From NCBI GenBank assembly GCA_036785375.1, contig JAWMAR010000025.1, positions 2,418,001-2,482,000 on the forward strand: a DNA stretch of 64,000 nt, given 5' to 3'. The position numbers and the translations under genes were made by a program. This stretch comes from Leucoraja ocellata (lineage: Eukaryota). Within the stretch, counting starts at the first letter, position 1. Each line of letters begins with the position of its first letter. Of the stretch, positions 826 through 63,630 are shown in pieces. The notes beneath the pieces were generated by a model. The model did not search any database. It saw only the letters and a program-made list of their open reading frames with translations, and was not told the origin of the DNA.

Positions 826-2887
826 GTGAGTGCACTTCCAGTTCCTTTCTTGCACCTACAAGGACATTCAATAGTTATCAAGTGATTTAGTAGACCACCT
901 CTGGAATAAATATTCCACTTTTTTAGGGAAGGGTAGGTTCATTGCTGCTTTCTCATTCACCAGTTTCTTGTGCTGCCTCGAATATTATGGCAGTTAGGCA
1001 CTTTACCACCGTTGGAATATTGTGATCTCTTGTGCGTGTGTAGGTTAAATCTAGTGTTTATGATTTGGCCCAGTGGTCAATTGTTTAATGCTTCATTGTA
1101 TAAGTCAAGTTATGGCTTGATCAGAATTTTATAGGATCAAATACAGTATAAAACTGGAAAATATTGAAAGGTCTGGAATAGGCAACTTATTCTGATAATT
1201 TAATTTCTTTTAATGTAGAATGATCATACAAAGTTAATTTTCATGGGACAGTGATGATACAACATCTAAGCTTTGTTATAATAATTAAAGTCTCCAGAGT
1301 TTGGTGTCCAGATTTCTAATTTAATGAATGGTGCTTATAATTATGACTGGGCTAATTAATATAGTGGAATTAAATGCAATTCATTATATTCCACCATTTC
1401 AATAGAGGAGGGATAATCTAGAGGAGGACCGGTCAAAAATCGAGTGATTTGTTTGGGTTTTCCCCAGTAAAATTAAGGCTGAGGTTTGAGGAGGGAATAA
1501 GATATGCTGTATTATTGAGGTGAAAACGGGCAGCTGTCATGATGAGTAAGCTTTACAATTAGAATCTCAGCTTTCGGCTCATATAGAGCGACAGGCTGCA
1601 AATAACCATGTTCGGCTGGTGACTGAAGAGAGTTTGCTTAATAGGAGAAAGCTTCTACTGATCTAATACTGGATATTGGACTAACAGCATGACAACTGGG
1701 CAGTGAAAGTAGTGGAGAAAGTGTAGACTGAGAGGGAAATGTCATCAGAGAAGATGTACATCAATGGTAGTATAGAAATGAATGAAATGTTTTTTGAAAT
1801 TTGGTCAGCAGCATGATATTTCCATCTTTGTAGTGCATGAATGAATTACCCAAAGAAAATGAGATGGGATATATTACAGAGATTGAGGTGAGCAGTTTTA
1901 GTGATGGGAGATGCTATATAACAATGCGTCCCATTTCTTGCACTTACTGTACTGATGAATGAAGGCAAGCAGTCATACGCTGCCTTCACTGCCTGTCTAC
2001 CCATGTGGCCATGTTTAGAGAACTGTCTACTTCTACCCCGTGATTTTGTGGTTCTACAACATCCCCAGGGTCCTCCCATTCACTATGTCCTTGGCTGGTT
2101 TAGCTTCCCAAAATTTATCATTTCTCATTGTCTGATTCAATTCCATCTGCCACTCTTTTCCAGTTGATTCAGAACCTGTTGTAACCTGCAATAACCTGCA
2201 CCGAATTGTACATATATTGGTCTTACTAATCATGCAAATTAATGCCATTGCTCTGCTCATTCTATAAGATCATCTATATCATCCTGCAGACTTTGACAGC
2301 TCTCCTATCAATGGCCATCAGTCTTATCTCCAAATTTGCTGTTCATATCTCATTCTCCAGATTGGTGGACAGACTTTAAATCGGACAAAATAAATCCCTT
2401 CGTCACCCTCTGCTTCCCGTAACCAGATTAATATTGAATCTAGATTGCCACATCATTGGATCCCATTAGCTCCAACCTTTTGGACAAACTCCCCAATGCG
2501 GGAGTTTGTCAAAGGCTGGATGAAGTCCATGTAAACAACATAAAACATTCTGCCCCCCTCACCTTTCTCTGCTAGCTAGCCTTTGGTGTTTATTGCGAAC
2601 GTGGTATTTCCACACCATATCATGCTGGAATTATCCGCTCTGCCTTCCTGCATCTCTGCTGTTGGCAACTGGAAATGGACACAGTGCCTTGGGGGCATAC
2701 TTACTTGTTTGACTTGATATAGGTTCCCAGTCATTTGGTCTCTGAATAGTCCAGTGTATGAAAGTAGTTGTTTCTCTGGGCAACATTTGAATTTTAACCT
2801 GCTGCATGATCACAATTATTAGACATATTTCCTATCCCACATCATTGGTCTGGCTATCAATGAAAGTGGATCGTGTTACTACATGAA

Positions 2888-2978
2888 CTGAAGAAGGGTT
2901 TCGGCCCGAAGCGTTGCCTATTTCCTTCGCTCCATAAATGCTGCTGCACCCGCTGCGTTTCTCCAGCATTTTTGTCTT
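2888..2978 (+). mobile_element. Solo Penelope-derived terminus (hammerhead-like motif)
   Basis: CTGAAGAAGGGTTTCGGCCCGAAGCGTTGCC...CTCCAGCATTTTTGTCT, near-identical to the 59457 copy. Confidence 0.85.
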
Positions 2979-4877
2979 ACTACATGTAATGGTTTGCCCC
3001 AACCCAGCTTGACCAGGCTGCAGCACAAAAACAATGTGTAAGTGAGAAATGTTTGTACTGTACTTAACGGAAGCTTGAATCTGTAAGTTTGTCAGATTTT
3101 TTAATGTTAGATTTTCCATCCGGTGAGACATTCTTGGAGTTGAGTAGTTAGTTTGAATGTGCTCCTTGTAGTTGTATAATTGACAGTCTTCATACGTTTG
3201 GCTAAGTGTATCTTTTTGCAGCAAGATCCTGGTGTTTAAAAGTTAACTTATTATTGATTTATCCTATAGTTGTGGTGATCTGCCATTATTAATGTGTAGA
3301 ATAAGATGACATTTACTGGTAATGTTCAGTTGCCTATATAGCAAGCCAAACCCTTGTGCACATCCGGTTGGTTTGTACACTTTCTTGCATCTTGGTAGGC
3401 AAATATTATGCTGTTGCATTTTTTACAGAGGAGTGAATAAGAATGCAAGACTGAAATGGGGACTTCTGCAGTCCTGAGAATAAATCATGAATCAGCCGCT
3501 GCCTGGTTAAACAGAATAAGTGAAACAAATTGTACACTTTGTAGTTTTTGGATGCATTGTAGTTCACTTTGTGTTTTCAAATTGTTAAGCTGCCTTCAGA
3601 GCTAGGTGCTATCTTATGATTGGCTGTGTATAGATATTCATCGTTGGGGGCCTGTTTCCTGTTGCTATTCTTGTGCCTCCCTTTTGGAGCTTGCTTCCTG
3701 TCTGTATGTGTTATGCTGAATCAGGGTGCCAGGGTCCTGTTTGTGCCTATTTGCTATGTCAATCCAAGCATCCTGTTACATTGAGTTTGGTGCTTAGTTT
3801 CTCAATTCTGTTTTTTTTTAAGTCCTAGCGTGAATCTAAAATGCAAATTGCTTTCCTGCTGCATGTTCTATATTGTCTTCCAATTCCAGGCTTAACTTGA
3901 ATGTTCTTCTCAACTAGACACGTGCAAGTAAGTCTGGGGGCTCTTGATCTGCTGGACCGTTGCTATTATGTGCAATAACATCCTGCATCAATAATTCAAG
4001 CTAATAATCATCTTAGGAATTGTGTCCGTACTCCAGATTTGGTATCTATATTTCAAACCTTGAGGATTAAAAATAGTTTTTGCCAGTAAACCGCAAATTA
4101 ATGTTGTGCATAAGAGGGAGAGATGGTCACTGCTGACAATGTTGAAATAGGATAGAACTGTTTGTGCCAAATAATTCTCCCTTGCTGCAGTTTTCGCCTG
4201 CCTTTTGAAGACGTGCAGCCCTATGTCTTTCAGCAGTTTTGTCTAAATAGCATGATTGGACATGTGTTTTTAACGAGGTGTTTGACTGATTGTAATCTGC
4301 TTCTGGCTTTAGACAGCTATGTGCATAAGGCCTGCCTTTAGTGTTCAAGAGTAGTCTCTTTCTGCTTTCACCTCTTCCAGATTTTGAGTGCTGTCTGACG
4401 ATGAAATTTGAGATCTGCTTGCTTTTGGTAGATAGTACATTCAACTCCTCAGTTGGAATAGGTAGTCAGATTTTCTTTGTGCATGTCAATATTTTTTGAA
4501 ATGTCTTTCTGGTTCTAATGTTAATCTGTAAAAGTGCGGGGTTCAATGAAGCTAAACTGCTGCACAAATTATGGGTTATCAGCTTTAGAATCTGCTAAAA
4601 TGATTACATTTTTAAACCTGTCAGAAGTTCAAGTTGTTTAGTTAGATTTCTGAACTGTTGTAGAATCCAAGATACACAGATCTGGAATAATGTAAAATTG
4701 TAGGTTCCCTCTCTTCCCACCAGACTAAATTGTAACTGGGATTCAAGGGTCAAACAATTTAGTAGATTGAATAAAAATGGCTTTTCACTCTGGATATCAT
4801 TTCTGATTTGGAAACAAAGCATGGTTGCAGCAGAAGAAGTGCTAAAATGGGTGTTATTCATGTAGAAAAGGTCAGAC

Positions 4878-6960: not shown

Positions 6961-7407
6961 CATGATGTCGGAATAATTCAGTACCTACATACCTACTGGA
7001 TTCCGTACCTACATTCGGAAATATTTTTAGAATTTGTCTATATAAGCTCAAAGGTTTTTTGCTGCAGCTCTTTAAGTTGAGACGGTGAACAAAACCAGTA
7101 GCTGCATTTTTGCAAATTGACTCTTTCCTATCCACTTTCCCAGACCTTCCTTCAGACGGCTGTTAGGAGTTTTGAAAGATTGTTTCCGTAAGTATTCTGG
7201 GCTGGAAAATCGATTGTGTATGGAGCTTGTGGCTATGCACTCGGATAGCTGGTGGTTCCATAGAGAATTAGTTTATTACTGTTCTTTGGAGAGTTTAATT
7301 TTAGCATACCAACTGATTTTACTCTTGAGAAAGTTTATACTACAAACCAGTCATCATTAGTCTCCCCTCAGCAACACCCCAGAGAAAACAATCCCAAGAT
7401 TGTTTAA

Positions 7408-7621
7408 GAAGGAACTGCAAATGCTGGAAAATCGAAGGTAGGCAAAAATGCTGGAGAAACTCAGTGGGTGAGGCAGCACTATGGAGCGAAGGAAATAGGC
7501 GGCGTTTCGGGTCGAGGCCCTTCTTCGGTTCTGAAGAAGGGTCTTGACCCGAAACATCTCCTATTTTCTTCGCTCCATAGATGCTGCCTCACCCGCTGAG
7601 TTTCTCCAGCATTTTTATCTA
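7408..7621. mobile_element. Inverted pair of Penelope-derived termini with 15-bp flanking direct repeat
   Basis: Arms ~7433-7528 and 7531-7621 are inverted; CCCAAGATTGTTTAA at 7393-7407 and 7622-7636. Confidence 0.88.
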
Positions 7622-8810
7622 CCCAAGATTGTTTAATCTATCTTTATGGCAAATACTCTAATCCAGGCGAGAATCATATCCTACTGATTCTCGCCTGCAG
7701 CCCCACCAAAGCCTCCACGTCGTCCCTGTAATGCGGCGACCAGAACTGCATACAATACTCCAAAGGGGTCCAACCAAAGCTTTATATAGCTATAACATGA
7801 CTTCCTGACTTTTATATTCAGTGCCCTGATTGAAGAATGCCATCACCATCTTTATTACCCTATCTACTTGTGTTGCCACTTTGAGGGAGCTCTCCCTTTA
7901 ACTCTCAATTCTATATAATTTTTGTGTAAAGTTGAGTGGTGGAAGTGCAGAAAGTAATGGAAATTTGAGTTCTTCAATGTATCAAGTTAACCCACTATTA
8001 CATATTTTGGAATCCATGCAGCCAACTACACTAAGATGTTGCTCATAATCCTGCTTCTCTCATTTGCATATTGGGTTTTACTGAATGATGTTTGCAGTTT
8101 TTTTAGAAGACAAACTGCTGTTTTGGAAGTTTTTTTACCTCTTCCTCTTCCTCTGGTCGCTTGACTGAACACGTAGATCCGCTGACAGATTTGATCGTTT
8201 GTGAGAGTCAGTGAATCAATCTAGCCTCTGTGTACTGCAGATGAGTTAATTTTATTTTCTGTGCAATGCAAAAATGCAAGTTACCAACACTGGCCTGATA
8301 TATTAATTAGCCCTTTATGGTGTTTGGAGTGAGCAAGCACCCTGGGACATATTAGGATTAACTTCAACAAATGTTTCATGGTCATATACGGCCAAGCCTT
8401 GCTCTTTGCCCATAATGCAGTTCGATATCTTGTTTTCAACTGCAAAAAAACACATTTGCTGTAAATTTATAATCATTTTCCACTGAAATAAAGCTGCATA
8501 ATGAGTGAAACTTGTTTGATAATATCTGACTCCATAATCGCCCCTTGTTAATAAACCCAGACTCACTCTATAATATGTCCAATCTGCATTGCTATCTCAG
8601 CATTTTTAATTTGGTGCCATACACAGACTTATTCCCAACATTCTTCTCGGCCGTCGCCATTTTATGGTTGGAAGATTTTAATTTTTGCCTTAATGGTGCC
8701 TTATGTGTTGTTAAACTGCAGAAAATTGTGGGTCATACCTGGTGTGCATATGGCAAATAACCGCTCTTGACTTGGCTCTTGACCTTGCCCAACAATGATA
8801 TCTATTCTCC

Positions 8811-20802: not shown

Positions 20803-20999
20803 TAGAAACAAGGAACCGCAGATGCCGATTTAAAGACAAAGTGCTGAGGTAACTCGGCGGGTCAGGCAGCATTTCTGGAACATGTGGATTGGTGATGTTT
20901 TGGGTTGGGACTCTTCTTCAGGCTGATGAAGGGTCCAACTAAAAGCATCACCTATCCCTGTCCTCCAGAGATGCTGAGTTATTCCAGCACTTTGTCTTC
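20803..20999. mobile_element. Inverted pair of Penelope-derived termini
   Basis: Minus arm ends TCTTCTTCAG; plus arm starts CTGATGAAGGGT at 20923. Confidence 0.75.
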
Positions 21000-21619: not shown

Positions 21620-22143
21620 AATGTGTAGGAAAGAACTGCAGATGCTGGTTTAAATCTAAGGTACAAAATGCTGGCGTAACTCAGTGGGATAGGCAGCATC
21701 TCTGGAGAGAAGGAATGGATGACGTTTCAGTTGAGACCCTTCTTCAGACTGCCAGGGGAGTGGGCGGGACAGATAGAATGTAGTCGGAGACAGTAAGACT
21801 GGTGGGAGAACTGGGCAGGGGGAAGGGATGGGGAGAGGGAAAGCAAGGGCTATTTGAAGTTAGAGAAGTCAATGTTCATACCGCTGGGGTGTAAGCTACC
21901 CAAGCAAAATATTAGGTGCTGTTCCTCTAATTTGTGCTGGGCCTCACTCTGACAATGGAGGAGGCCCAGGACCGAAAGGTCAGATTGGGAATGGGTGGGG
22001 GAGTTTAAGTGCTGAGCAACCGGAAGATCGGGAAGGTTAAGACAGATTGAGCGGAGGTGTTCAGTGAAACGATCGTCAAGCCTGCGCTTGGTCTCGCCGA
22101 TGTTCAGAAGAAACGATCGTCAGGCCCGCGCTTCCTACACATT
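21620..22143 (-). mobile_element. 5'-truncated Penelope-like retroelement: GIY-YIG endonuclease C-terminus plus 3' terminus with hammerhead-like motif
   Basis: Minus strand 22101..21850 reads open: IGETKRRLDDRFTEHLRS...PVAQHLN...HCQSEAQHKLEEQHLIFCLGSLHPSGMNIDFSNFK*, followed by pyrimidine-rich UTR and CTGAAGA...GAAACGTC terminus. Confidence 0.88.
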
Positions 22144-26167: not shown

Positions 26168-26470
26168 TAAGAAGGAACTGCAGATGCTGGAAAATCGAAG
26201 GTACACAAAAATGCTGGAGAAACTTAGCGGGTGCAGCAGCATCTATGGAGCGAAGGAAAAAGGCAACGTTTCGGGCCGAAACCCTTCTTCAGACTGGTGG
26301 GGGGAGGCGGGGAAAAGAAAGGAAAAAGGAGGAGGAGCCGAGGGCCCTCCCCGCCTCCCCCCACCCCCCATCAGTCTGAAGAAGGGTTTCGTCCCGAAGC
26401 ATTGCCTATTTCCTTCGTTCCATAGATGCTGCTGCACCCGCTGAGTTTCTCCAGCATTTTTTGTGTACCT
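26168..26470. mobile_element. Young inverted pair of Penelope-derived termini with 17-bp flanking direct repeat
   Basis: ~110-bp near-perfect inverted arms (26197-~26310 / ~26350-26472); TCAGTTAACTAACTATT at 26151-26167 and 26471-26487. Confidence 0.92.
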
Positions 26471-26987
26471 TCAGTTAACTAACTATTGACCAGGCACTGA
26501 ACTAGCAATCTTTCTGATATGAGACTCGTTCACATTCTGAATAAACTCAGAACTTTGTGGGGTGTGAATGGGTGCATAGCATGTTAATTGTCAAACTAAT
26601 CTATAAATATGGGCTAACAGTCGGGAAATGTTCAAACCTATCACATTGGGCAATTTAATTTAATATATTATCTGGATTTATTTTTAACAGGCGTAGGTAG
26701 ATGAGATAGTGAAGAAGGCATTTGGTATGATTGCCTTCATAGGCCACGGCATTGGGGACAAGAGTTGGGATATTTTGCAGCTGGGCAAAGCTTTGGTCGG
26801 GCTACACTTGGAGTATTGTGTACATTTCTGGTTGTTACACTGCAGAACAGCAGTGGTAGCATTCTATGCAAGCAACAAATTTCACAGTGCCTTGTCACAT
26901 GTGACAAAGTATTCCATTCCATAACGTATTCCATTAGAAAGAATGGAGAAGAAATTCACAGGATGCTACCTAGAATGGAGCACTTTA

Positions 26988-34837: not shown

Positions 34838-36139
34838 GTGAGTTTGAAACGGCTTTTAACTTCAGCTGGGAGCCTGGTTGCAAAGTTCACTGATAATTTT
34901 AAACTTTTGTTCTATATTTCACCCTTTTTTTAAAAAGTGTATCCATCTTGGCCGTTTTTATTTTGCCAAACTTGTTTTCAACTCATTGGTCATCCTGAAA
35001 GCAATTCCTGCACAGCAACACTTGTTAGTTTAGAATATTTATTTGAATAATACCACTGCTTGTTTGAATAATCCCACCCTTATTTAGAGTGGGGGAAGGG
35101 TCTTGAGGGGGGGGGGGGGGGGGGGGGCTTAGATTAAAGTAACTGCAAGCCCCTGTTGTATGTCTGCTCATTCTAGCTCAATACTTTCAAAGTTAGTCAG
35201 GTGATATGAACGCAGTTCTGACAGAAGCACATTTCATCCCATGTTCAGAAATAGATTTATTTAGAATTCCAAGACCATCTCCTGTCATTTACTACCCCAT
35301 TAACAAAATCTAATTCATTTCAGTCGTTGATAGATGGGCACATAATTGGGACTGTGCAGACTTTCACCATAAACAGAGATAAAAGTTTTGATGCAACTGT
35401 ATTTCAGAAACCTTTTTTGCGGTTAAATTAAATTAAGAATTTACAGTCGATACTAGATCATTTGGTGTTTGTCATTAGGACGTGGTTAGAGTGGTGTACT
35501 GTAAAATCCAAATTTCTAGCACAATATACTCACAGTCAAAGTGAGAACAATGGATGACCAGCGAACTGCCCTCATGTTGGGTATGTCCAGGCAGGTTGAA
35601 AGAAGGTAGGATCTTATGGACAGTCTTGATTTAAGATATTTACCTGCCTATCCCAACCTAGACTTGTTTGCTTACAGTTCCCATTAGAATTCAGGAAGTT
35701 ATGTTCATGGGTAGCTGCAGTGTCCACACGAATTGTTCCATCTATAGTTAAAAGGAAAATCATGCATTATGTATAATATCTTTCATTAGGCCCTGACTCA
35801 AACTCACACCCAATGAATTGCATCTGAAATGGGGTCCCTGTTTTGTTGTAAGAACGCAAGGAGCTTCTACAAGCAGCAACGTGATTCTGCCATTTAGGGT
35901 AATCTTTTTTAGGGTTAGTTGAGAGATAATAGTTGGCCAGGGTGCTGTTTTCAGATGTGATCTTTTGCATTCACTGGAAAGTACGGGAATTGGTTCTCAT
36001 CTCATCCAAAAGAGCAAACTGCCCAGTACTGCACAAGTATTTGGTTTATTATTGTAATCTTTGTGGCATGCTATCCGGTCAGCTAAAAAAAATACATGAT
36101 AACATTCAAGCTGTCTACAGTGTCCAGATATATTGTATC

Positions 36140-36978: not shown

Positions 36979-37101
36979 TAGGGTTCAAGGCTTTGGGAAT
37001 TGATTTGATAATTCAGGTTTACTCTGTAGCTGCTAGTAGATGGAATGGGGAAATTAAAAGGTATTAAATTACTTTACCTAACATGTCATTCATTAACTCC
37101 A

Positions 37102-37295
37102 AGGTAGACACAAAATGTAACTCAGCGGGACAGGGAGCACCTCTGAAGAGAAGCAATGCATGATGCGGTACAGAGATATATCTCAATCCGAAACGCTGCC
37201 CATTCCTTCTCTCCAGAGATGCTGCCTGTCCCGCTGAGTTACTCCAGCATTTTGTGTCTACCTTCGATTTAAACCAGCAGCTGCAGTTCTTTCCT
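37102..37295. mobile_element. Inverted pair of Penelope-derived termini with 14-bp flanking direct repeat
   Basis: ATTCATTAACTCCA at 37088-37101 and 37296-37309. Confidence 0.88.
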
Positions 37296-39404
37296 ATTCA
37301 TTAACTCCATTTTGGTGGAGTAAGATGTTTTTTACAAGGTGAATTAATGACATCATTAGTAAGGAATGCAATGCTGTCAATGTGAAAGGAGGTTAATCAT
37401 GAAGAATTCTGTCATTTGTTTTCCAAACTGTTGAGAGATTTCAGAGTATCAGACATGCAACTAATCATCTGAAAAGCAATTGTAGCTAAAATTAATTTAG
37501 CAGAAGAAAGTATGCACTGTGACTGCAGTTTATTGAGATGTCAGAAATAAAGTGCAGTGAAGGGGTGGTGGAGTTGGAGGGGTGTTGGAGTTGCATTTAT
37601 TTACCCCTTTGGCCACTTGTATGTTTACACTAATCTTTGCTCCAATTTTCCTGATATCTTATTCTAAATTGTCCATTTCCATATCCATTGACTTTATCAG
37701 TCCTTTCTGTTTCAAACTGCCTTTCATTGTAGTGCTGGCAAATCATTTTAAATGGGTGCCCAAGTGTTTCTTCGTCTCTTAAAATATAGCACTTGAATTC
37801 CAGTATCTGGGTCATGAGACCCATTGTTATATGTTGCCTGATAAGATTATCCTACTTGGTTTGGAAGGAAAAGTATGCAGTATGTTACTATATATAAAAA
37901 ACAAAATATTGGAAATATTCAGCTGGTCAGCATTCGAACAGAGAAAAATAGTTAATATCTGAATGACATGCTGCGGCTGAGGAATGTTGGTGTAGTGCAG
38001 CTGCAGTTACATACAAGAGACTCGGCATTCCTGCCTGTTGTTCTATACTGGCCACCTCTCCCTGCCACTTTCAATAAATGTCATTAGATCTGTGAGTATT
38101 ATAGTAAACGGTGTTTCCTTGTATACTTAATTTTGTTATCCATTCTGGGTGATTGAGTCCATGATTTGAGTCTGAAGTCTGTCCTTACAAGGGCATTATC
38201 CGTGTGATCACTGCACAGAGTTGTATGGGGGGAAAAGGAAGGAATTCCAAGAATGTCAGCCCTGCCCAGCAGCTCATGTGACATTCCAGCTGACTGCTTT
38301 GCATGTTGCCATCCCAGATTCCCTGGAGATACCCGAGAGTTGATGAATGGGAAGCGTGTTTAGAAACTGAATGAAGCAGAGTTCAGTCGCCTGACTGCAG
38401 TGTAACCTAATTCCCATATTGCACAGTAAGGGGAGCCCAACTGCATTCTTAAGGCAGTGACAAGTCACTAAGCAGGAGGGGAATCCCCTGACTGAGCAGG
38501 GTGAAAAGGTGAAACAGAGCTGGGTGTAAATAAGGCTAACCTTCTGTTGATCTTCCCTGCTCACATTTAATGAACAGCAGCGTGAATCATCAAGACTATT
38601 GTAGTACCTGAGAGCACTTGATTATGAGCACAGTATTGTACACCAATCATAGACGTCTGTATCTGAGCAGCACCATCTATGACATGTCACAATGATCTTG
38701 TCTGAACAGAAGAATGCATGAGAATAATGATCAACACCATTGTTACTGCTTTCATTGATTGTCCTTCAAATGAATTGTATCTGAACACAATATTTAAATA
38801 TACCTGTATATGATTTTTGAATATTTTTCATATTGAATTGATTATATTTGTCTGAGTTCATGTCTTCCCGATCTGAGGAATAGGTTAGATTGTTAACTAC
38901 AGATCGTATCCCACCTCTTTTCACAACACAATGCACACCTCCCGGCGAAGTGACAGGCCCAGTCTCTCACAAAAGAGGTCCTGCCACAACAAATTGCCCA
39001 TTGTTCCCCTCTATTGCATACCCTGCCTGGATCTTTGCTCCCTGCATCCACCACTGGTCACACACTCGCCCCTCTGGCCTCTTCTCTCCTTTTTGATATT
39101 TTCGTTTTATTTCCCCACAATCCACCCAATACAAAAATCTCTGGGTTTTGAACCCTCCACATTTATCCGAGTCCAAACTCCTCCAGTCTATTCCTTCTGC
39201 TCATCTTGCCTCCCCACTCACTGATCACCCATTTATTCTCTCTTAACCTTTCTCTTCAGTCCCCTCCTGTCCTGTCCTCCTTCATCCCTGTTCTCCAAGC
39301 CTTTTCCTCTTGTCAGCTCGCACAATCATGTCATAGTTTTACATTGTTCCTGAGCCATTGACTCCCCCATTTGATGCTAACATGTGATCTTTTTTTTATT
39401 GCAG

Positions 39405-44610: not shown

Positions 44611-44905
44611 AAGCGCAGCTGCCAGAGTTACCACTTCATGGCGCCAGAGATCCAGTTCCATCCTGTCTGTGGAGTTTGCACGTTCTCCCTGTGACTGCAG
44701 ATTTTCTCCCGGTGCTCTGGTTTTCTCCCACGTCCCAAAGACAAGGGGGGTTTGTAGGTTAATTGGCCTCTGTAGATTGACCCTAGTGTGTAGGGTGTGG
44801 ATGAGAAAGTGGGATGATATAAAACTAGTGTGAGCGGCTAATCGATGGTTGGTCTGGACTCAAAGGGACAACGGGCCTGTTTCCATTCTGCATCTCTAAC
44901 CTAAA
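44611..44905 (+). mobile_element. tRNA-derived SINE (same family)
   Basis: GGAGTTTGCACGTTCTCCCTGTGAC...GTAGGTTAATTGGC...GGGCCTGTTTCC. Confidence 0.8.
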
Positions 44906-45292: not shown

Positions 45293-45348
45293 GTAGGGTA
45301 ACTTAGCAAGGGTAGGGCAACTTAGCAAGGGTAGGGTAACTTAGCAAG
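45293..45348. repeat. 19-bp tandem repeat x3
   Basis: GTAGGGTAACTTAGCAAGG / GTAGGGCAACTTAGCAAGG / GTAGGGTAACTTAGCAAG. Confidence 0.9.
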
Positions 45349-45349
45349 T

Positions 45350-45510
45350 TAGTCAGCATCCCTGGAAAACATGGAAAGGTGACGCTTCGGGTCTGGACTC
45401 TTCAGTCTGAAGAAGAGTCCTGAGCCGAAACGTCACTTATCTATCTTCTCCAGGGATTCTGCCTGACCTGCTGAATTTCTTGTTTTGTGAACCAGCATCT
45501 GCAGTTTTTT
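45350..45510. mobile_element. Inverted pair of Penelope-derived termini
   Basis: GGTGACGCTTCGGG...CTTCAGTCTGAAGAAG...GAAACGTCAC...CCAGCATCTGCAGTT. Confidence 0.75.
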
Positions 45511-46345
45511 CTCCAAAGGAAAGGAAGTATTACTTCATACGTAGTGCCCAACAAAGTTTCTTGACTTTTGTTTTGGAAAGTTCAATTTAAGAATATATCA
45601 GCGAAGGAGGATTGATATATATATTTTTAGAAAGTTAACCAAAGCTCCAGGAATTAAGAAGACATGCTGTAAGATTGCAACTTGTATTTCCTTAAATTTG
45701 ATGGATGATCTGATGCTATTAAAAATTATAAATGCAGGTCAGCCAAATCAGTGGTGGGGGAATATAGTGCACGGGATATAATTTTCACAAGTAAAGTTAG
45801 AACAAACATTTTTTACATAAGATGATGAAGTGTGAAAAGCTTTCCCTAAATAATTTAATGCTGTGGATTAGTTACACATTTCAAGACTGGACTATAAATT
45901 GGAGGGAAATAATTATGGTTGAGGGACCTTTCCCATTTTACAAATACAGGGTAGTAGAAAGTTTAATTGGGGCACAATTACTTACAGTGCAGTTCAGCAA
46001 TTGGCTGCAATCTGCCAATTTGCACAATAGATATTATTCATAGCTGAGGGAGTGAACTAATCGTTCAGGAGAGAAAATGAGGCCAAACCTCAAAACATAG
46101 CCAAACATTCCTACAATATAAACACTCGTTTCTTTAGAGCCTACTTTATTATGGGGGTTTGGGGATTAAATTCCTTAAGTACCTAAAGTTAATGAAGTGA
46201 TTTTTCAGCAAGATTAAGTTACTAGATTAAATGATCTCTGCATTGCACAGTTGCCTATTTATAAGGTTCAGATTTTATGCTGCAAGAATCATTTTATTTG
46301 TAAGAAATGTAAGAAATCTGAACACTCTTGTATAATTTTTGTCAG

Positions 46346-53063: not shown

Positions 53064-54052
53064 CAGCTGTGGGAACCTTACTGTGTGTGTGCGTGATTGG
53101 AGATCTTTGAATCGACTGTTTCTGTCTTTATTTATGCAAAAACCACCTCTGTTCCCAAAACTTGCCCCACCTATTCTTAATAATGGAAGGATATCGTAGT
53201 CATTTTGATCAAGTACCAGAGGGGGGAAAAAAAAGATGAATGTTTGCTGCCTGTGTATAAGTCAGAAATTTTTTAACCAAAGTTGCTGTCTCATTTGCAG
53301 CGAGTTTGGGAGAATGCCTCATCCTCGGGCATCCCTCCCTGGAGGGCCCTGCTTCAAAATTTTTATGGTAAATTTTGGAAGCTAAATGACTTGGGAAATC
53401 TTTGGTTCAGTGCTGTGCTCTTGGATTGTAATTCAACCACTGGAAGGTGGCTCATGAGAAGCTCTGTGTACATTATGCAGGAGACAGCCTACACATTAAA
53501 CCCTGAACATATGTAACCTTTGACCAGCTGTAAACAATATTTCACATTGAACAATGCTGGTTTGGCAGCGAACTGTAGTTTTAAAACATTTTTTAGTTTA
53601 CAGTAAACGTGAAAAAAAGGCTTTTCCCCTTCTCAAAGTATCGTGTGTATCTACACCACCTCCCCTTGATTGTATGGACTTTTCCTCTTTCACTTCCTGA
53701 CTGATTTTAAACTGCAGCTACAGCCCCTGAGCTGTGATTGTATATAGAAGTTGTACAATGCACATACCCTCAAAGTTGGTTGTTTTTTTCCTTCTCTCGT
53801 AGAATGAGGTTTACAATTTTCATGACATGGTCAAGCAAAAAGTGATAGCTTTTATTTCCATCGGCCATATCCTGCGAGGGTAATGTACAAGTTTCTGTAT
53901 GTATAAAGTTGTGCTCTAGTTCAAGGAGAGCAACAGATCACGTTTTTCCTTTATAATCAAGGTGTGGAAAAAGTTTAGGTTCAGTTGAAGCTCACAAAAA
54001 ATAATGAAGAAACACAATTTGAGATTTTTCAGTGCTATGAAATCTGCATATT
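53064..54052 (+). other. ARID1A: ARID1A 3' UTR (end hidden by assembly gap)
   Basis: Follows the TGA with no recognisable transposon; ARE-like TTATTTAT (53128) and Pumilio-type TGTATATA (53739); several blocks resemble the human ARID1A 3' UTR as recalled. Confidence 0.8.
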
Positions 54053-54203
54053 NNNNNNNNNNNNNNNNNNNNNNNNNNNNNNNNNNNNNNNNNNNNNNNN
54101 NNNNNNNNNNNNNNNNNNNNNNNNNNNNNNNNNNNNNNNNNNNNNNNNNNNNNNNNNNNNNNNNNNNNNNNNNNNNNNNNNNNNNNNNNNNNNNNNNNNN
54201 NNN
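54053..54203. other. Assembly gap (151 N)
   Basis: Run of N. Confidence 1.
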
Positions 54204-55661: not shown

Positions 55662-56428
55662 GCTTGGTTCTATACTCCACACATGTCTCTTCCTATTTCA
55701 TTTCTTTTCTCTGCTTGAGCAGACATTGCTATTTATCCTGGAATAAACTGTCTGGCTGTGTGCAGTGTGGAGCCCGAATCATCAGTATTGTAAAATTGTG
55801 TGACAATATTGGCTGGTTTAATGTGGGAGGCTGCTGCTATTGTGGAAGTAGCAGGAGAAAGTATGGTAACTCTCCTGCTATGTATTTCCTAATGTTTCTA
55901 CTTTGTGTCCTTTACTATACCACCAGAGAGGTGATATTTGATATTATATTGAATTTCACTAATCAAAATATCCCTAGTTTAAACCTCAATTTCTGCCCCT
56001 ATTCTAACTATAGAGACTGGTACCAAATTAAATGACTGAACCTGTGATCCAGTGATGGCAACCGATGATCTGGATATGTTGGTTCAAATGTCATCAATTT
56101 GATTTAAAGTATTTGCTAACAAAGCAAAAGCTGGCAACTGGGATTAGCTGTTTTGACTAGTAAGGATGCGACAAGTTGAATTACTTCCTTAATAATTTTC
56201 ATCTAAGAATTAACTGAAAATATTGGATCCCTAAGAATCATCTTAATATATTGCCAAAACTTGGGTAAAGCAGCTAACATTTCCAATTACAGGTATGTGT
56301 TTGTGAGGGCAACATATTTGCTTCATTTGGATGCAGAGATATCACTTTTGTCCTTTGCTGATACTGAAATTTAGGTCAATTGAAGACCTAAAAAAGATTG
56401 AACATGCAGAAAGAATAGCAATAAAGTT

Positions 56429-56558
56429 CAGTCTGAAGAAGGGTCTCAACCTGCAACATTCACATATTCCTTTTCTCCCGAGATGCTGCCTGACCTGTTG
56501 ATTTACTCCAGCATTTTGTGTCTATTTTCAGTGTAAACCAGCATCTGTTGTTCCTTCT
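56429..56558 (+). mobile_element. Solo Penelope-derived terminus
   Basis: CAGTCTGAAGAAGGGTCTCAACC...TACTCCAGCATTTTGTGTCT...CCAGCATCTG. Confidence 0.8.
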
Positions 56559-56699
56559 GAATTAAAGCAGGAATGGGGTACTGATTTTGGATGATTAGCC
56601 ATGATCATATTGAATGATGTTGCTGGCTCGAAGGGCTGAATGGCCTACTCCTGCACCTATTTTCTATGTTTCTATCTCCCGGCTGCTACTCATTTTAAC

Positions 56700-57058
56700 C
56701 CCCCTTCCCATTCCCATTCCCATCATGGCCTTTATATTCTGGGCCGCCTCCATTGTTAGAGTGGCCACATGCAAACTGATGGAACACCACCTTATATACC
56801 ACTTACAATGCTTACAACCCGTTGGAATGAACAATGAATTCTGCAATTTTAGATAACCTCTAAAAAACCCCCTACCAGCTCTCCCCTACATCCCTGTGCC
56901 CCACCTGGACTCCAATCTATTTCCTTCTCCTACCAGCCGTGCTATTTTCATCCTAGCTTCACAATTCACTACTCTTCAATCCTGTTTCTCACTTGCTTTT
57001 ACTCCTTGTTCCAACCATTTGCCTATCAAACAAAACTTGCCTGTATCCAAGACAAAGC

Positions 57059-57100
<42 letters not shown>

Positions 57101-57183
57101 CTGAAGAAGGATCTTAATCTGAAATAACACCTATTCATGTTCAAGTGCTGAGGTACTCCAGCACTTTATGTCCTTTTGTGTAC
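56700..57183 (+). mobile_element. Penelope-like element 3' remnant
   Basis: CKLMEHHLIYHLQCLQPVGMNNEFCNFR* (homologous to the 21850 copy), C-rich UTR, (CA)n, CTGAAGA at 57101. Confidence 0.8.
57063..57098. repeat. (CA)18 microsatellite
   Basis: Direct reading. Confidence 0.95.
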
Positions 57184-59354
57184 TCTTAACTTAATTTTTC
57201 TGTTTTTATCACTTGTTTCCAGTATCTGCTGTTTAAAATGATCCATTCTTTACAGTTTGAGTAAAATAGAGATGTGATCACTAGTGGAAAAAAAAATTCA
57301 ATAGATTGCCAGCCAGTAAAATTGAATAAATTAGCAGGGAAATTGCAAAAGTGCTAAAATAACAAAAATGGGGATCTTCAACTGTGGAAATAGAAACTGG
57401 GATAGTGATATTAGTGCAATGTATGAGGGCATTGTGCTTGGGAGAATTTTATTGAGCTGCGTGTTTCTATCAGTGATAGGCAGCATTGTGTAGGAAGGAA
57501 CTGCAGATGAACAGACACAAAGTCTTAAGTCTGCAACTTTATGGGTCAGGCAACATCTCCGGAGAAAAGGAATACGTGACATTTTGTGTCGAAACCCTAT
57601 GGAGATTTGTAGATAGGAAAGACCAGAACAAAACATGGAGGGCAACAAATGGCCAAGGAAATGTGGAGCCCATAATCCCACATTGTTAGCTGGGGAAGGA
57701 GTGATAATGATGGCATGCAGAATGTAGGACGATGGGGTGGGGACGAGGAGAGGGGGCAGGATATATCATTCATTCCAATATATTTTAAAAAATGAGTCAA
57801 TGGAGAAGGGTCATTTTCAATTGGATGAGAACATATATGATGAGTAAATAAGAATCAAATCTTGGCAGGTAAAACTAATTAAAAAAGGTAGAGATGATTC
57901 AGATGCTATCTAGGTACATACTCATGAGGGAGATGGTTGGGGAAATTAAAACTAACACTACTTAAGATGATCAAAATGATAATTAAATACGTTTAAAGAA
58001 AAACAATTAGCAGATGCAAGTTGTTAATACAAGGGAGAGCCAGGCCAATTCGATGAGGTTCAGCAGTGAAATCTTTTATTTAAAAATGTGGATGAGGCGG
58101 GCGAGGGCACGTGAAGAGTGGTCACAAAATGGAATTTTAAAATATTCATTAGACGTGAATAGGAAGACCTGTCAGAGGAGAGGTGGTGTCACCTATTCCT
58201 TTTCGCCGGAAATGCTGCCTGACCGAAAGGTCTGAATGACAAATAAAGGATCTAAGTCTAAGTAAGTCATTGAGGGACTAAACAGAAAATCTTGCAGAGG
58301 CAGAAGATCTGGCGAAGGTACTAAATGATTTACATTAGCTTTTTTGCAAGGAAGTAGTTGAGATTCTGGATGGGTTTAAGCTAGATGAAATGAAAGGCTA
58401 GTTGCATTTGAAAATGGTTACAGCACCTGGTCCATGTGGAATGCTTCTCCGGTTAATGAGGAAAGCTATAGAGGAAATAACTTTCCAAGTACTTAGAGTT
58501 TTGAGAGGTGTCTGAGGACTGAAAAGATGCAAATATACACCCATATTCCAAAAGATCCATATAGGGATAAACACTGCAAATATTGGCCATTTAGTTTAAC
58601 TTCCAAGGTGGCGAATGTTCTAAAACAGGACAGAAATGTAGTTACTTGTCCAAGTATAATTAGAGAACATGGATTTGTTAAATGCAAATTATATCTTGAC
58701 TAACTTACTAGTTTTTTTTACACCAAGGTAATAGAAGTGTCGCTGCAGTGGACTTTCAAAATATTTGATGTTTCATGTCACATTATGTAGAGCTATTCCA
58801 TAAAAGGGATTATAGCACCATGGATACGAAGTGGCTAAGGACCAAGAAAACAAGAGAGATTGCTTTTTTTGGACTGGAGGCAAGTGCACAGATAAGGATT
58901 GGTAGTTGAACTATAAACTAGTGCACCATTCTAAAAAGGGTTCACTTTTTTACTTTTTCATGTTCCCTTGTGTGCATAATTTGTTGAATGTGGCAGAACA
59001 CGTTGAAAATGCAGTGTTAAAGAAAATGTACATGGGATCCTGAGCGTAAAAATTATGGAATACAAGAGCAAGGAAGTAATCAAAATTAAAAAAAAAAACA
59101 CTGGTTTGGATACAACAAGAATATTGGACACTTTAAAAATCTAAAAGTTTTAAGTAGATACTGGCTGAGATATATGAATCTTACTAGATATGGTGCCGGA
59201 TGGCTGATGGGTGGCTAATATGCCTCTAAAAAGAGTTGCAAAGAAAAACCTAGGAACTATCGACCAGTGAGCCTAACACTTGTGGTAGGAAAGTTATTGG
59301 AAAGGATTCTGAGGGATAGGAATTACATGCATTTGGAAAGATGGGCTTACTGGG

Positions 59355-59940
59355 ATAGAAACATGGAAAATAGGTGCACGAGTAGTTTATTTGGCCCTTC
59401 GAGCGTCCGTATGATCGTGGTTAATCATCCAAAATCAGTACCCTATTCCTGCTTTCCTGAAGAAGGGTTTCGGCCCGAAACGTTGCCTATTTCCTTCGCT
59501 CCATAGATGCTGCTGCACCCGCTGAGTTTCTCCAGCATTTTTGTGTACCTTCGATTTTCCAGCATCTGCAGTTCCTTAAACCCTATTCCTGCTTTCTCTC
59601 CATATCCCTTGATTCCATTAGCCCTAAGAGCTATAACTAACTCTCTCTTGAACACATCCATTGAATTGTCCTCCACTGCCTTCTGTGGCAGAGAATTCCA
59701 CAGGTTCACAATTCTCTGGGTGAAAAAGTTTTTCCTCATCTAAATGGCCTACGCCTTATTCTTAAACTGTGACCCCCTATTTCTGGACTCCCCCATCATC
59801 AGGAACATTTTTCCTGCATCTAGGCTGTCCAATCCCTTAAGAATGTTATACGTTTCTATAAGATCCTCTCTCATCCATCTAAATTCCAGTGAATACAAGC
59901 CCAGACAACTCATTCTTTCCTCGCATGTCAGTCCCGCCTC
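59355..59940 (-). mobile_element. CR1 LINE 3' fragment (interrupted by the Penelope-derived insert)
   Basis: Minus ORF RKNFFTQRIVNLWNSLPQKAVE...FKREL; same family as 4878-5287. Confidence 0.88.
59457..59579 (+). mobile_element. Young solo Penelope-derived terminus with intact hammerhead core, inserted into a CR1 LINE, 17-bp TSD
   Basis: ACCCTATTCCTGCTTTC at 59440-59456 and 59580-59596; CR1 sequence resumes across the insertion. Confidence 0.92.
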
Positions 59941-61150: not shown

Positions 61151-62626
61151 AAAGTGATTCAGTACAATGAAGATGAGATTATTTTCCTTGGATCAGAGAG
61201 ATCGTAAATTGGCAATGTCAATGTTCCAGGAGGTGAACAACAAAATTCCAGAATGTACTATCATTAAAAAGGAGACAAAGGGAGTCTTATTAACCTTAAC
61301 AATTGGATAAAGCCCAAGGACCTGATACATACAGCATGTGTCTATCTTCAGTTTAAACCAGCATATGCAGTTCCTTCTGCATGTGCTTCTGAGGTGTATC
61401 CAGGTCAGAGCCAAAGGAGGAGATTGCAGGGCGATAATGAATTTATATATCTTCATTTACCATACGTGAGGTGCCAGTATAGAAACATAGAAAATAGGTG
61501 CAGGAGTAGGCCATTCAGCCCTTCGAGCCTGCACTGCCATTCAATATGATCATGGCTTATTGGAAAAGATTCTGAATAGAGTTAATCTATGGAAGGCAAT
61601 GATTAATCAACAACCATCAGTGTGATTGTTAGGGGAAGATCTTAAACAATTTGATTTATTTTCCCCAAAGGTAACATCATGCTTTGAATAAGGCAATGGA
61701 GTTGATAATTTCCCTTAATGAAGGTACTGTAAATGAGGACATTTAGTCTCAAGTGATTGCATAGTTGTACCGAGTGACACTAAGAGATAAGTCACACTTT
61801 CATTCAATGATAATAAAGATATGAAGGGCCAATTGTCCTGCAGCTTGATTGGCTCTAGGATCTTTATATTGCCCATTTCTGTACTTTCAAACACTGTTTC
61901 AACTTGGGTGACTCCAATCAATAGCCATGATTGTTACCCTGTAAGTACAATATGAACTGGGCCCATCTGTTTCCACTGAAATCCTAACAATATATCTTCA
62001 TAACATGGAGCATCTCTCCTACATAAACTTAATACATTTTTATTCTTCCTAAATGGAAAGTACTTCAGAAATTCATGATAGTTTTTTGCCCTCTAATCAA
62101 AGTTCTTGCAGCAGTGTCTCTACGCATTGATTGAGATGGCTTCAGTTGATAAAACTAATAAAGCACTGTCGATAGCTCCCTCTGCAGGAATACACTGAAT
62201 TTAATTAAATAAACCCAATTCTAACGAAGAGTTCCAACCCAACAAAGTCACCAATTTATGTTCTACAGAGATGCCGCTTGACCCGTTTAGTTACTCCAGC
62301 ACATTGTGTCTTTTTTTGTACACGGGCAACTGCAGTTCATTGTGTCTCCCACCTCTCCACTCTGGTTCCAGCACATAGATAAATAACACCTCACCAGAAT
62401 TTTTCTGCAAATTATATTATATTTATTTTATATTTATTATATTTAATTCTTTACTTCGAACAGAATAAAAGAATAAAAAGCAAGTGTGAAACAGCATACA
62501 AAAAACAAAATATTTATAAAGTGTCATAAACAATATCTATAAATAAATGAAATCGTATGTGTCCGAAAAGGAGTAGTTATGTTTTCTTAACAATCCAAAT
62601 AATTTAAAGGGTGATAGAAGAGTTAA

Positions 62627-62939
62627 GGGCCTGTCCTACTATACGAGTTTATCCAAGAGCTCTCCCGAATTTAAAAAAAAAAAATCAAACTCGTAAGCAC
62701 GTAGAAAATACGTAGCGGGTACGTCGGAGCTCGGGACGTCCCTTAGTGGCTCATAACGCTAACGACAGGTACTCGGGAAACGCGGTAAACTCTTGAAGTT
62801 TTTTCAACATGTTGAAAAATGTCCACGAGAGCCCAGAGTACCTACGAGCAGCTATTACTGTACTTCTCCGAGTTTGAATCGGGGGGGGGGGAGAAACTCA
62901 GGAGAACTCTTGAATTACCTCGTACAGTGGGACAGGCCA
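62627..62939. mobile_element. MITE with ~21-bp imperfect TIRs, flanked by TTAA (Kolobok- or Harbinger-like)
   Basis: TTAA|GGGCCTGTCCTACTATACGAG ... CTCGTACAGTGGGACAGGCCA|TTAA. Confidence 0.8.
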
Positions 62940-63034
62940 TTAAGGAACCATCAAATAAGTGCAAGTTTTCTCCTGGTCTAACTAACCAAAATTATACATC
63001 TTGGTGATTGTCTCACCAACTACTTGCTAATCCC

Positions 63035-63630
63035 ATCTGATTCTTTCCTTCCTAATCCCATACTGCCCTTTCTGTCCTGGACCTCTTCATTGCCAGCATG
63101 AGGCCACATGCAAACTGGACCAACAACAACACATATTACCACTTGGGTAATTTATAAAGCAACGGTGTGAACATTGAATTCTCCAATTTTAAGTAATACC
63201 CCTCAAACTCTTCTTTGCTGCGCTCCTCTCTTCCTGGAATGCCCCCATTTCTCCTGCTATTTCTCACCCCCAACTCGCCCTGCTCCCTTCCCATCCTACA
63301 TACACTATCCTCCCATATCCAAGTCCCTCATTTTAACTTCCCCCCACCCCACTGTTCCATTCCACCTATGTCCCCTCTCTTTACATTTCACTCCTACTCT
63401 TTCCTTATCTGACATCTTTTTGGCTCCTCTTCACCTATAGCCTTTCACTTGCTCCATAAATCTGCCATTCACACCCCCCTCACTTGTATTCACCTATTCC
63501 CTGCCAGACTTTGTCCTTCCCCCACCTCCCCCCTACAACAATCAGTCTGAAGAATGGTCCCAACACAAAATGTCACCTATCCTTTCCTTCCAGCACTTTT
63601 TTTTGCTCGGGATTCAGCATCTGTGATTTC
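63035..63630 (+). mobile_element. Penelope-like element 3' remnant
   Basis: Degenerate GIY-YIG C-terminus (...GTGAACATTGAATTCTCCAATTTTAAGTAA), C/T-rich UTR, CAGTCTGAAGAA at 63543. Confidence 0.78.

What the first reader, a model, noticed from the sequence alone, without database searches (positions are those of the whole stretch)
59457..59490. Minimal hammerhead-ribozyme core in an abundant Penelope-derived short element family
Seen: CTGAAGA-A-GGGT(TTCG)GCCC-GAAA-CG-TT at 59457-59484, and the identical core on the minus strand at 26265-26292. Other copies show stem II as GGGT(CTCG)ACCC (55650 minus) or GGGT(CTTG)ACCC (7539), so U-G and U-A alternate at the closing pair. A canonical CTGATGA box occurs at 20923. 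About 20 copies or remnants lie in 64 kb. Established: CUGANGA...GAAA...UH is the hammerhead catalytic core, and Penelope-like elements carry minimal type I hammerheads with palindromic stem III that can cleave as dimers. Here stem III is reduced to the palindrome ACGU/AACGUU. Inference: this genome has a very high-copy ribozyme-bearing non-autonomous Penelope family (retrozyme-like), easily mistaken for a generic SINE or MITE. Caveat: stem I is weak (about 2 bp, CAGU vs GCC/ACC), so monomers may be inactive.
Basis: partly seen in the sequence, partly recalled or inferred. Interest (0 to 1): 0.75.

Follow-up and report, generated by a model that had tools for sequence, protein, structure and literature searches.

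The report
Penelope retrotransposon ends carrying hammerhead cores
The motif is a real minimal hammerhead-ribozyme core inside a very abundant ~120-base repeat that is likely the truncated end of a Penelope-type retrotransposon in a skate-like fish; this link is already known, and this particular copy is likely unable to cut itself because it lacks most of one required stem.

Summary
Observation confirmed. The core lies at 59457-59484 (+) and 26292-26265 (-). The family has 28 arms at 22 loci (4.1% of the window); only 2 of 28 keep a fully intact core with palindromic helix III. The repeat is the 3' pseudo-LTR (pLTR) end of an endonuclease-bearing Penelope-like element (PLE), probably Neptune clade. 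Three arms run upstream into a GIY-YIG C-terminus. The 3' ends fall in two classes about 25-30 bases apart (the PLE 'tail'). Six loci are head-to-head inversions, and target-site duplications are 13-17 bp. 'Retrozyme' is not supported: there are no tandem arrays, and copies do not start at the cut site. The 59457 copy is a 123-bp insertion starting exactly at C3, so stem I is 1 bp (2 bp in copies with native context). A competing hairpin dominates the predicted fold, covariation does not exceed shuffles, and two RNA libraries from a related species show no end pile-up (weak test). One unexplained feature: 13 of 28 arms begin within a few bases of the core's 5' edge, suggesting a 'strong-stop'-like product or a short non-autonomous master. 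Known kind, new member; interest 0.3.

The parts
59457..59484 (+). Minimal type I hammerhead core: C3-A9 box 59457-59463, extra base 59464, stem II 59465-59468/59473-59476 with UUCG loop, GAAA 59477-59480, palindromic A15.1-U16.1 (ACGU) 59480-59483, H17=U at 59484 (predicted cut after it). Stem I only 1 bp here.
59457..59579 (+). Whole insertion, 123 bp: 5'-truncated Penelope pLTR end from C3 through the tail
59545..59579 (+). Approximate optional 3' tail: present in 15 of 28 arms; 9 arms end about 25-30 bases earlier; contains the second of two CCAGCAT repeats (offsets +75 and +102)
59440..59456 (+). Left copy of 17-bp target-site duplication
   Evidence: score 17; null maximum 10 in 296 random sites; single copy in the uninterrupted paralogous LINE at 4879-5288
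59580..59596 (+). Right copy of 17-bp target-site duplication
59354..59889 (-). Host element: 3' end of a LINE (the label CR1-like is recalled from its translation, not tested) interrupted by the insertion
26168..26472 (.). Head-to-head pair of the same young subfamily: minus arm with intact core at 26292-26265 plus tail, plus arm 26376 without tail; pyrimidine-rich pLTR sequence upstream; 10-bp palindrome at the junction; target-site duplication of 17 identical bp (26151, 26471)
21626..22128 (-). Longest PLE end in the window: GIY-YIG C-terminal remnant (83 codons open, 22101-21853), stop, 103-bp pyrimidine-rich spacer, decayed hammerhead core at 21747, tail
56428..57176 (+). Partial tandem: core+tail arm (56433), LINE 3'-end piece (about 56561-56676), GIY-YIG C-terminal remnant (56676-56853), 3' spacer with (CA)20, second core arm (57101)
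63047..63630 (+). Third GIY-YIG remnant (63047-63193, frameshifted), 351-bp spacer and decayed core arm at 63547
7393..7636 (.). Head-to-head pair joined at the core's 5' edge, one arm tailed, 15-bp target-site duplication
37088..37309 (.). Head-to-head pair with palindromic junction, one arm tailed, 14-bp target-site duplication
2873..2986 (+). Solo tail-less arm of the young subfamily starting 2 bases before C3; 13-bp duplication with 1 mismatch (borderline against the null)
20806..20997 (.). Older head-to-head pair joined at the CAG-N-CTG palindrome; carries the CTGATGA box at 20923
45332..45512 (.). Older head-to-head pair joined at the CAG-T-CTG palindrome

Best explanation
The 59457 element is a 123-bp insertion flanked by a 17-bp duplication and is likely a dead, 5'-truncated copy of the 3' pLTR of an autonomous GIY-YIG Penelope-like retrotransposon (probably Neptune clade), whose pLTR carries a minimal hammerhead core that in this copy is predicted not to cleave. 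Shown: the core, the duplication, the family, the two 3'-end classes, the inversions, and the link to GIY-YIG coding sequence in longer copies. Inferred (about 0.85): the PLE protein nicks DNA and starts reverse transcription at one of two internal sites about 90 or 120 bases past C3, as shown in vitro for the anole Poseidon element, which yields tail-less and tailed copies. Inferred (about 0.75): the template was uncut RNA, because most copies read through the cut site into the core. Inferred (about 0.45): copies stop at the core's 5' edge because the RNA begins there, so priming at the first tail gives a ~120-nt 'strong-stop'-like cDNA that inserts alone or, after a switch at the CAG-T-CTG palindrome, as a head-to-head pair. 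Inferred (about 0.6): the core is kept in master elements as a weak, protein-assisted or dimer-dependent ribozyme, or as a protein-binding or promoter signal, and plays no part in the inserted copies.
For: GIY-YIG link: 83 open codons end 103 bp upstream of the 21747 core. They are 78% and 73% identical to two Leucoraja erinacea predicted proteins and 48% identical to the C-terminus of an 813-aa RVT_1 + GIY-YIG protein. Two more remnants lie upstream of 57101 and 63547: 3 of 28 arms in all. In RNA reads laid on the 21747 copy, depth downstream of the cut is about 10 times that over the GIY-YIG end (X23: about 23,000 versus about 2,300), a similar ratio. Tail: 15 of 28 arms end at +115 to +119, 9 at +88 to +104, 4 elsewhere; 5 of 6 head-to-head pairs have one tailed and one tail-less arm. 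This matches the PLE layout in PMC3846280 and PMC8557442 and the two internal start sites in PMC11167929. Duplications: 14-17 bp at 4 of 22 loci plus one borderline 13-bp case. Partial tandem at 56428-57176. 5' clustering: 13 of 28 arms start between -6 and +7, 6 extend upstream, 9 start further in; 10 events in 14 bases versus 7 in the next 43 (binomial p=0.003; solo arms only, p=0.035). Loose-end consensus in all four runs keeps the core to its 5' edge and then loses agreement. Against activity of this copy: stem I 1 bp; stem II probability <=0.005 in the local ViennaRNA ensemble.
Against: The window fragment itself has no Pfam hit and no solved-structure hit; GIY-YIG hits in most relatives are below the curated cut-off. 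No PLE reverse-transcriptase remnant was found in the window with the 152 fetched proteins, so no full element was seen. The GIY-YIG-linked arms belong to older subfamilies; the young subfamily of 59457 extends at most about 70 bases upstream in this window. 17 of 22 loci show no significant duplication. The clustering interval was chosen after seeing the data, boundaries without duplications were judged by eye, and shorter arms are harder to detect. The upstream spacer differs between subfamilies, which alone would make the loose-end consensus degrade. Energy models ignore Mg2+, tertiary contacts and proteins. The reads came from related organisms and were laid on a diverged copy.
Confidence: 0.75

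Rival explanations
1. A distinct non-autonomous ~125-nt element with its own master copies, transcribed from the core's 5' edge and mobilised in trans by the PLE protein (a Penelope counterpart of a SINE).
For: 13 of 28 arms start at nearly one point. The young subfamily (59457, 26292, 26376, 2888; 95-98% identical) has no GIY-YIG-linked copy in the window. An ATG at +49 is followed by a stop within the tail in several older arms, so the tail is not a conserved ORF start. Trans-mobilisation by pLTR sequence is reported in PMC3846280.
Against: 6 of 28 arms continue upstream, including two of the young subfamily, and 3 reach GIY-YIG. A continuum of 5' truncations is expected of autonomous PLEs.
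Confidence: 0.2
2. The 5' clustering comes not from an RNA start but from a preferred template switch or self-priming at the CAG-T-CTG palindrome, possibly on an antisense template, at the border of the pyrimidine tract; a 3' splice site at the same CAG is a further variant.
For: 3 of 6 head-to-head junctions lie on this palindrome, and two others lie on different palindromes. Palindromic junctions were read as self-priming on an antisense template in PMC3846280. A pyrimidine tract followed by CAG precedes the core in long arms, and the D. virilis intron ends at helix I.
Against: 7 solo arms also start there with no inverted partner. No shared upstream exon is seen in short arms. No GT..AG RNA joint is among the 15 joints shown (332 more not shown).
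Confidence: 0.35
3. A non-LTR retrozyme: tandem units cut by dimeric hammerheads, circularised and reinserted.
For: Palindromic helix III suited to dimers. Same-strand core-bearing arms lie 668-1394 bp apart at four places. Tandem retrozymes are reported for the one chondrichthyan sampled in bioRxiv 10.64898/2026.07.22.740005.
Against: No tandem array of the unit among 10 Tandem Repeats Finder rows. Helix I is 0-3 bp in 13 arms checked. Only 2 of 28 arms start near the cut. The close same-strand neighbours are decayed. No read-end pile-up in two RNA runs (table 6; weak).
Confidence: 0.04
4. A generic SINE or MITE whose likeness to a hammerhead is chance.
For: No Rfam hammerhead hit; no significant covariation; overall folding z-scores only -0.4 to -1.4 for six sense-strand slices.
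Against: All descriptor features of PLE minimal hammerheads except helix I length are met. Physical link to GIY-YIG. No tRNA gene, and none of 15 A-box-like matches falls in an arm. Long variable duplications, tail and head-to-head layout fit neither class.
Confidence: 0.02

Closest known systems
Minimal type I hammerheads in pLTRs of metazoan Penelope-like elements (Cervera and De la Pena 2014, PMC4209133; Lunse et al., seen only as cited in PMC6765202)
   Same: Same core, extra base between 9 and 10.1, G10.1-C11.1 pair, palindromic 15.2-16.2, location in the pLTR, mostly dispersed single copies from truncated PLEs, massive copy number.
   Different: Helix I is 2 bp in native context and 1 bp at 59457, against 4-5 bp in the typical minimal motif (the D. 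virilis variant also has 2 bp). Helix II is 4 bp. The passages read name fishes, coelacanth, Xenopus and reptiles, not cartilaginous fish; supplements were not seen.
Neptune-clade EN+ PLEs (Craig et al. 2021, PMC8557442)
   Same: C-terminal GIY-YIG followed by a hammerhead-bearing pLTR, optional 30-40 bp tail, inverted 5'-truncated copies, partial tandems. The CX2-5CxxC linker occurs in the 73%-identical skate relative P0002 and in 22 of 43 relatives long enough to show it.
   Different: No RT or linker is preserved in this window, so the clade is inferred from relatives; Nematis and Naiad also carry the linker.
Poseidon element PAc of Anolis (Frangieh et al. 2024, PMC11167929)
   Same: Two internal reverse-transcription start sites defining the tail; uncleaved RNA as the dominant substrate; no RNA-seq reads ending at the hammerhead cut; ribozyme needs protein.
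   Different: There the ORF starts at stem II; here no conserved ORF start was found in the arm. The strong clustering of 5' ends at the core edge is not described in the parts read.
Non-LTR retrozymes of animals (PMC7229834; bioRxiv 10.64898/2026.07.22.740005)
   Same: PLE-related, non-coding, type I hammerhead, present in a chondrichthyan.
   Different: Retrozymes are head-to-tail arrays of units each with a complete, in PMC7229834 canonical, hammerhead and make circular RNA. These copies are dispersed or head-to-head, have PLE tails and duplications, and mostly broken cores.

Membership tests
EN+ Penelope-like element | C-terminal GIY-YIG endonuclease just upstream of the pLTR | tested here: met
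   Remnants upstream of 3 of 28 arms; 48% identity to the C-terminus of an RVT_1+GIY-YIG protein. The fragment alone has no Pfam hit.
EN+ Penelope-like element | Telomerase-like RT in the same ORF | tested here: inconclusive
   No RT remnant in the window; 4 of 7 long relatives scanned carry both RVT_1 and GIY-YIG hits; no genome held.
EN+ Penelope-like element | Optional 30-40 bp tail at one end | tested here: met
   15 arms end at +115 to +119 and 9 at +88 to +104 of 28; 5 of 6 inverted pairs are asymmetric.
EN+ Penelope-like element | Head-to-head inverted and partial-tandem layouts | tested here: met
   6 of 22 loci head-to-head; partial tandem 56428-57176, interrupted by a LINE piece.
EN+ Penelope-like element | Target-site duplication of variable length | tested here: met
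   14, 15, 17 and 17 bp at 4 of 22 loci, one borderline 13 bp; null maximum score 10 in 296.
EN+ Penelope-like element | Internal promoter and 5' intron in the pLTR | tested here: inconclusive
   Pyrimidine tract plus CAG before the core; no spliced RNA joint among 15 rows shown, 332 hidden.
Neptune clade | CX2-5CxxC linker between RT and EN, and RT phylogeny | tested here: inconclusive
   Not preserved in the window; linker present in P0002 and in 22 of 43 long-enough relatives; no tree built.
Minimal type I hammerhead | CUGANGA, GAAA and UH boxes with correct spacing | tested here: met
   Intact with palindromic helix III at 59457 and 26292; 4 descriptor matches versus 0.03 expected.
Minimal type I hammerhead | Extra base after A9, G10.1-C11.1, palindromic 15.2-16.2 | tested here: met
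   Sequence against the list in PMC4209133.
Minimal type I hammerhead | Helix II forms and covaries | tested here: inconclusive
   4 bp possible; 77% of cells paired across 22 arms; covariation not above shuffles (57 of 500 reach the score); pair probability <=0.013 in three of four local folds, 0.26 in one.
Minimal type I hammerhead | Helix I of 4-5 bp | tested here: not met
   1 bp at 59457; 0-3 bp in 13 arms checked.
Minimal type I hammerhead | Self-cleavage after H17 (monomer, dimer or protein-assisted) | not testable with these tools
   No end pile-up in two fragmented cDNA libraries of a related organism; such libraries do not preserve ends.
Non-LTR retrozyme | Head-to-tail tandem units each with a complete hammerhead | tested here: not met
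   None among 10 tandem-repeat rows; one window only.
Non-LTR retrozyme | Canonical helix I (6 bp) with loop-loop contact | tested here: not met
Non-LTR retrozyme | Expression as linear and circular monomers | not testable with these tools
   Oligo-dT and single-cell libraries only.
tRNA-derived SINE | tRNA-like head with A and B boxes | tested here: not met
   0 tRNA genes; none of 15 matches to a recalled A-box pattern lies in an arm, 14.8 expected by chance; B box not scanned.

The most novel reading that the evidence does not exclude
In skates a Penelope element floods the genome with SINE-sized copies because internal priming at its first tail copies only the ~120 nt back to an RNA start at the hammerhead's 5' edge: a Penelope 'strong-stop' DNA that integrates on its own. 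The core has lost stem I and is kept as a promoter or RT-recruiting signal rather than a catalyst, giving on the order of a million fossil ribozyme arms if this window is typical.
Probability: 0.25. Interest if true: 0.55.

Novelty: new member of a known kind. Interest (0 to 1): 0.3.

Why it matters
The hammerhead-Penelope link is published, so the motif alone is expected. Two things are useful. First, the family takes 4.1% of this window and 0.22-0.27% of reads in two RNA libraries of a related species, and can be misfiled as a SINE, MITE or miRNA hairpin. Second, the role of PLE hammerheads and the source of head-to-head inversions are open questions (PMC8557442, PMC3846280, PMC11167929). 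A genome with this many copies in several subfamilies lets one map reverse-transcription start and stop sites, and test selection on the core across master lineages, from sequence alone.

Tried and rejected
Rfam scan of the whole window: no hammerhead family among 18 matches at E<=5. Pattern scans for the core in genome contigs, metagenome contigs and viral contigs: 0 loci each, so no outside loci could be aligned. No whole genome held. Sequencing-run search with the ARID1 last exon: no RNA holder listed on record; four raw RNA runs were offered by species label. Spliced exon supplying stem I: no shared upstream sequence in short arms and no RNA joint shown; left open because the reference copy is diverged and 332 joint rows were hidden. 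Cleavage-generated 5' ends: no pile-up, and 2 of 28 arms start near +28. Covariation of stems I, II and two downstream stems: not above shuffles. Conserved ORF start at the ATG at +49: frame open in the young subfamily but stopped or shifted in older arms, and no hit of 152 proteins on 9 arms. Downstream hairpin joining the +47 block to the tail: 88% of cells paired but no covariation, and folding z-scores not significant. The apparent 13-bp duplication at 58188 is a self-overlap and was dropped. Earlier-findings look-ups returned nothing. Literature searches listed no paper describing this skate family; Repbase and Dfam could not be checked, and it may well be annotated there.

Full report
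Setting. The window is 39-42% GC in most bins and holds exons of an ARID1-family gene on the + strand: an ARID domain at 34532-34930 and BAF250_C in 51366-53060. The finding lies about 6.4 kb past the last coding exon. No whole genome is held. The closest named relatives of a window-encoded peptide are from the skate Leucoraja erinacea, so the host is likely a skate or ray; I did not determine the species.

Observation. The core is at 59457-59484 as described. The pattern occurs 3 times against 0 in 100 shuffles, and a looser descriptor gives 4 matches against a mean of 0.03. A profile from 13 window copies finds 28 arms at 22 loci and none in the reversed window; they cover 2609 bases, 4.1%. 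Only 59457 and 26292 have both boxes, a paired stem II and the ACGU palindrome. Rfam has no hammerhead match among 18 hits.

The target copy. It is a 123-bp insertion (59457-59579) between two identical 17-bp repeats. It interrupts a LINE 3' end whose paralogue at 4879-5288 is continuous over the site (the label CR1-like is recalled). The insert starts exactly at C3, so the 5' strand of stem I is host DNA and gives 1 bp. Among 13 arms checked, six with native upstream bases give 2 bp, one gives 3, and the rest 0-1. In this subfamily a 6-bp hairpin that sequesters GAAA competes with stem II, whose predicted probability is <=0.005. These models omit Mg2+, tertiary contacts and proteins.

Penelope origin. 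Upstream of the arm at 21747 (-) lie a 103-bp pyrimidine-rich spacer and 83 open codons. The peptide has no Pfam hit of its own. It is 78% and 73% identical to two skate predicted proteins with weak GIY-YIG hits, finds 838 representatives at E<=0.001, and aligns at 48% with the C-terminus of an 813-aa protein carrying RVT_1 and GIY-YIG. Two more remnants precede the arms at 57101 and 63547. At 56428-57176 the order is core+tail, LINE piece, GIY-YIG end, spacer, core: a partial tandem. The CX2-5CxxC linker that marks Neptune and Nematis (PMC8557442) is in P0002 and in 22 of 43 relatives long enough to show it, out of 152 proteins examined. No PLE RT remnant was found in the window.

Structural signatures. 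The 3' ends form two classes: 15 of 28 at +115 to +119, 9 at +88 to +104, 4 elsewhere. Six loci are head-to-head pairs, and 5 of these 6 have one tailed and one tail-less arm. Duplications of 14-17 bp flank 4 of 22 loci, with one borderline 13-bp case; the other 17 show none above a null of 296 sites. PMC3846280 and PMC8557442 describe this layout: an inverted pLTR, a 30-40 bp optional tail and palindromic junctions. PMC11167929 shows that the tail lies between two internal reverse-transcription start sites, that uncleaved RNA is the dominant substrate, that the ribozyme cuts only with protein, and that no RNA-seq reads end at the cut.

Conservation and covariation. Non-CpG core cells match the majority in 157 of 168 cases against 1503 of 1775 downstream (p=0.001, non-independent cells, and edge trimming favours the core). 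By column, shared variants occur in 2 of 10 versus 44 of 85 (p=0.09), and parts of the tail are as conserved. For an 18-pair structure on 22 arms no measure clearly beats shuffles: 57 of 500 reach the covariation score and 26 of 500 reach the two-sided cell count. Four older arms share a mismatch in stem II. The evidence for selection on catalysis is thus suggestive at best.

Public reads. I laid four runs on 21600-22200 at 80% likeness: contigs of unrecorded kind from organisms B and C (X15, X18; 0.99 and 0.83 of exon words shared) and raw RNA reads of organism A (X23, X21; other runs with that label share 0.84-0.94). 143,123 and 115,348 contigs were laid, which shows abundance but is no copy number. 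RNA: 35,087 of 12,895,792 and 38,208 of 17,596,208 reads. Depth over the part downstream of the cut is about 10 times that over the GIY-YIG end in X23. No place where many molecules begin or end was listed, and none of the 15 joints shown is a spliced RNA joint (332 hidden). These are fragmented cDNA libraries swamped by dead copies, so both negatives are weak. Loose-end consensus sequences keep the core to its 5' edge and then diverge or turn into differing pyrimidine tracts.

The unexplained part. 13 of 28 arms start between -6 and +7 of C3 (7 solo arms, 3 inverted junctions), 6 run further upstream and 9 start further in; only 2 start near the cut at +28. Ten events in 14 bases against 7 in the next 43 gives p=0.003, solo arms alone p=0.035, with the interval chosen post hoc. 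The bases there, CAG-T-CTG, are at once a palindrome, a possible 3' splice site after a pyrimidine tract, and resemble an initiator (recalled consensus). My preferred reading is that the RNA starts there and that priming at the first tail gives a short strong-stop-like cDNA; a template switch at the palindrome and a separate short master are the rivals.

Comparison. It works like, and is very likely a member of, the EN+ PLEs with minimal pLTR hammerheads (PMC4209133). It fails the helix I criterion of the typical minimal motif and the tandem-array and canonical-helix criteria of non-LTR retrozymes (PMC7229834). Retrozymes and PLEs are reported for one chondrichthyan (bioRxiv 10.64898/2026.07.22.740005). 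Five searches listed no paper on this family; repeat databases were not available.

What I read. PMC4209133: parts 1-2 of 4. bioRxiv 10.64898/2026.07.22.740005: parts 1-3 of 5. PMC11167929: parts 1-2 of 4. PMC3846280: passages and Discussion. PMC2377424: part 1 of 4 and passages. PMC8557442, PMC6765202, PMC7229834, PMC5680766: passages. bioRxiv 10.1101/2025.06.08.657570: term search only, no hits. Lunse et al. (PMC5785218): not held, known only from its citation in PMC6765202. No supplements were seen; those of PMC4209133 and the 2026 preprint may list elasmobranch motifs.

Verdict. Real feature, Penelope origin well supported, retrozyme label not supported, activity of this copy unlikely. New member of a known kind; interest 0.3.

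Noticed in passing
window 28649-53063 (+): Exons of an ARID1A/B-type gene (ARID domain 34532-34930, BAF250_C in the last coding exon); 18 of the 28 arms lie before 53100, 10 minus and 8 plus, with no clear strand bias.
   Followed up: partly
window 56553-56589 and 59430-59456: The 56433 arm abuts a LINE piece at the same LINE position where the 59457 element inserted, in the opposite orientation; coincidence or a preferred junction.
   Followed up: no
window 12108-12777 (+): Frameshifted DNA-transposase remnant with a DDE_3 match below the curated cut-off.
   Followed up: partly
window 62623-62943: Element with 50-bp terminal inverted repeats (82% identity), MITE-like, lying between the 62220 arm and the GIY-YIG remnant at 63047; it may interrupt a second partial tandem.
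   Followed up: no
window 21108-21496, 26990-27287, 44663-44899: Another dispersed repeat family of about 230-300 bp with three copies, not examined.
   Followed up: no
window 22060-22145 (-): An imperfect tandem duplication of about 40 bases at the 5' end of the GIY-YIG remnant, like a template jump during insertion.
   Followed up: no
window 21600-22200, run X21: Single-cell reads lie 4-11 times more often on the + strand than on the - strand over the core and most GIY-YIG bins (element is on -); library chemistry is unknown, so sense or antisense cannot be told.
   Followed up: no
window 59504-59566: An 8-bp stem can pair the +47 block with the tail's second repeat, and its 3' part can alternatively pair with the first repeat; the two 3'-end classes each lie shortly after one repeat, a possible basis for two priming sites.
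   Followed up: partly
proteins P0001, P0002, P0007, P0068: Several public predicted proteins are chimeras of host or LINE domains with this PLE endonuclease fragment, probably gene-prediction artefacts from the abundant repeat.
   Followed up: no
window 13097-13198 and the N run near 54050-54200: A perfect 50-bp tandem duplication and a 151-base assembly gap.
   Followed up: no
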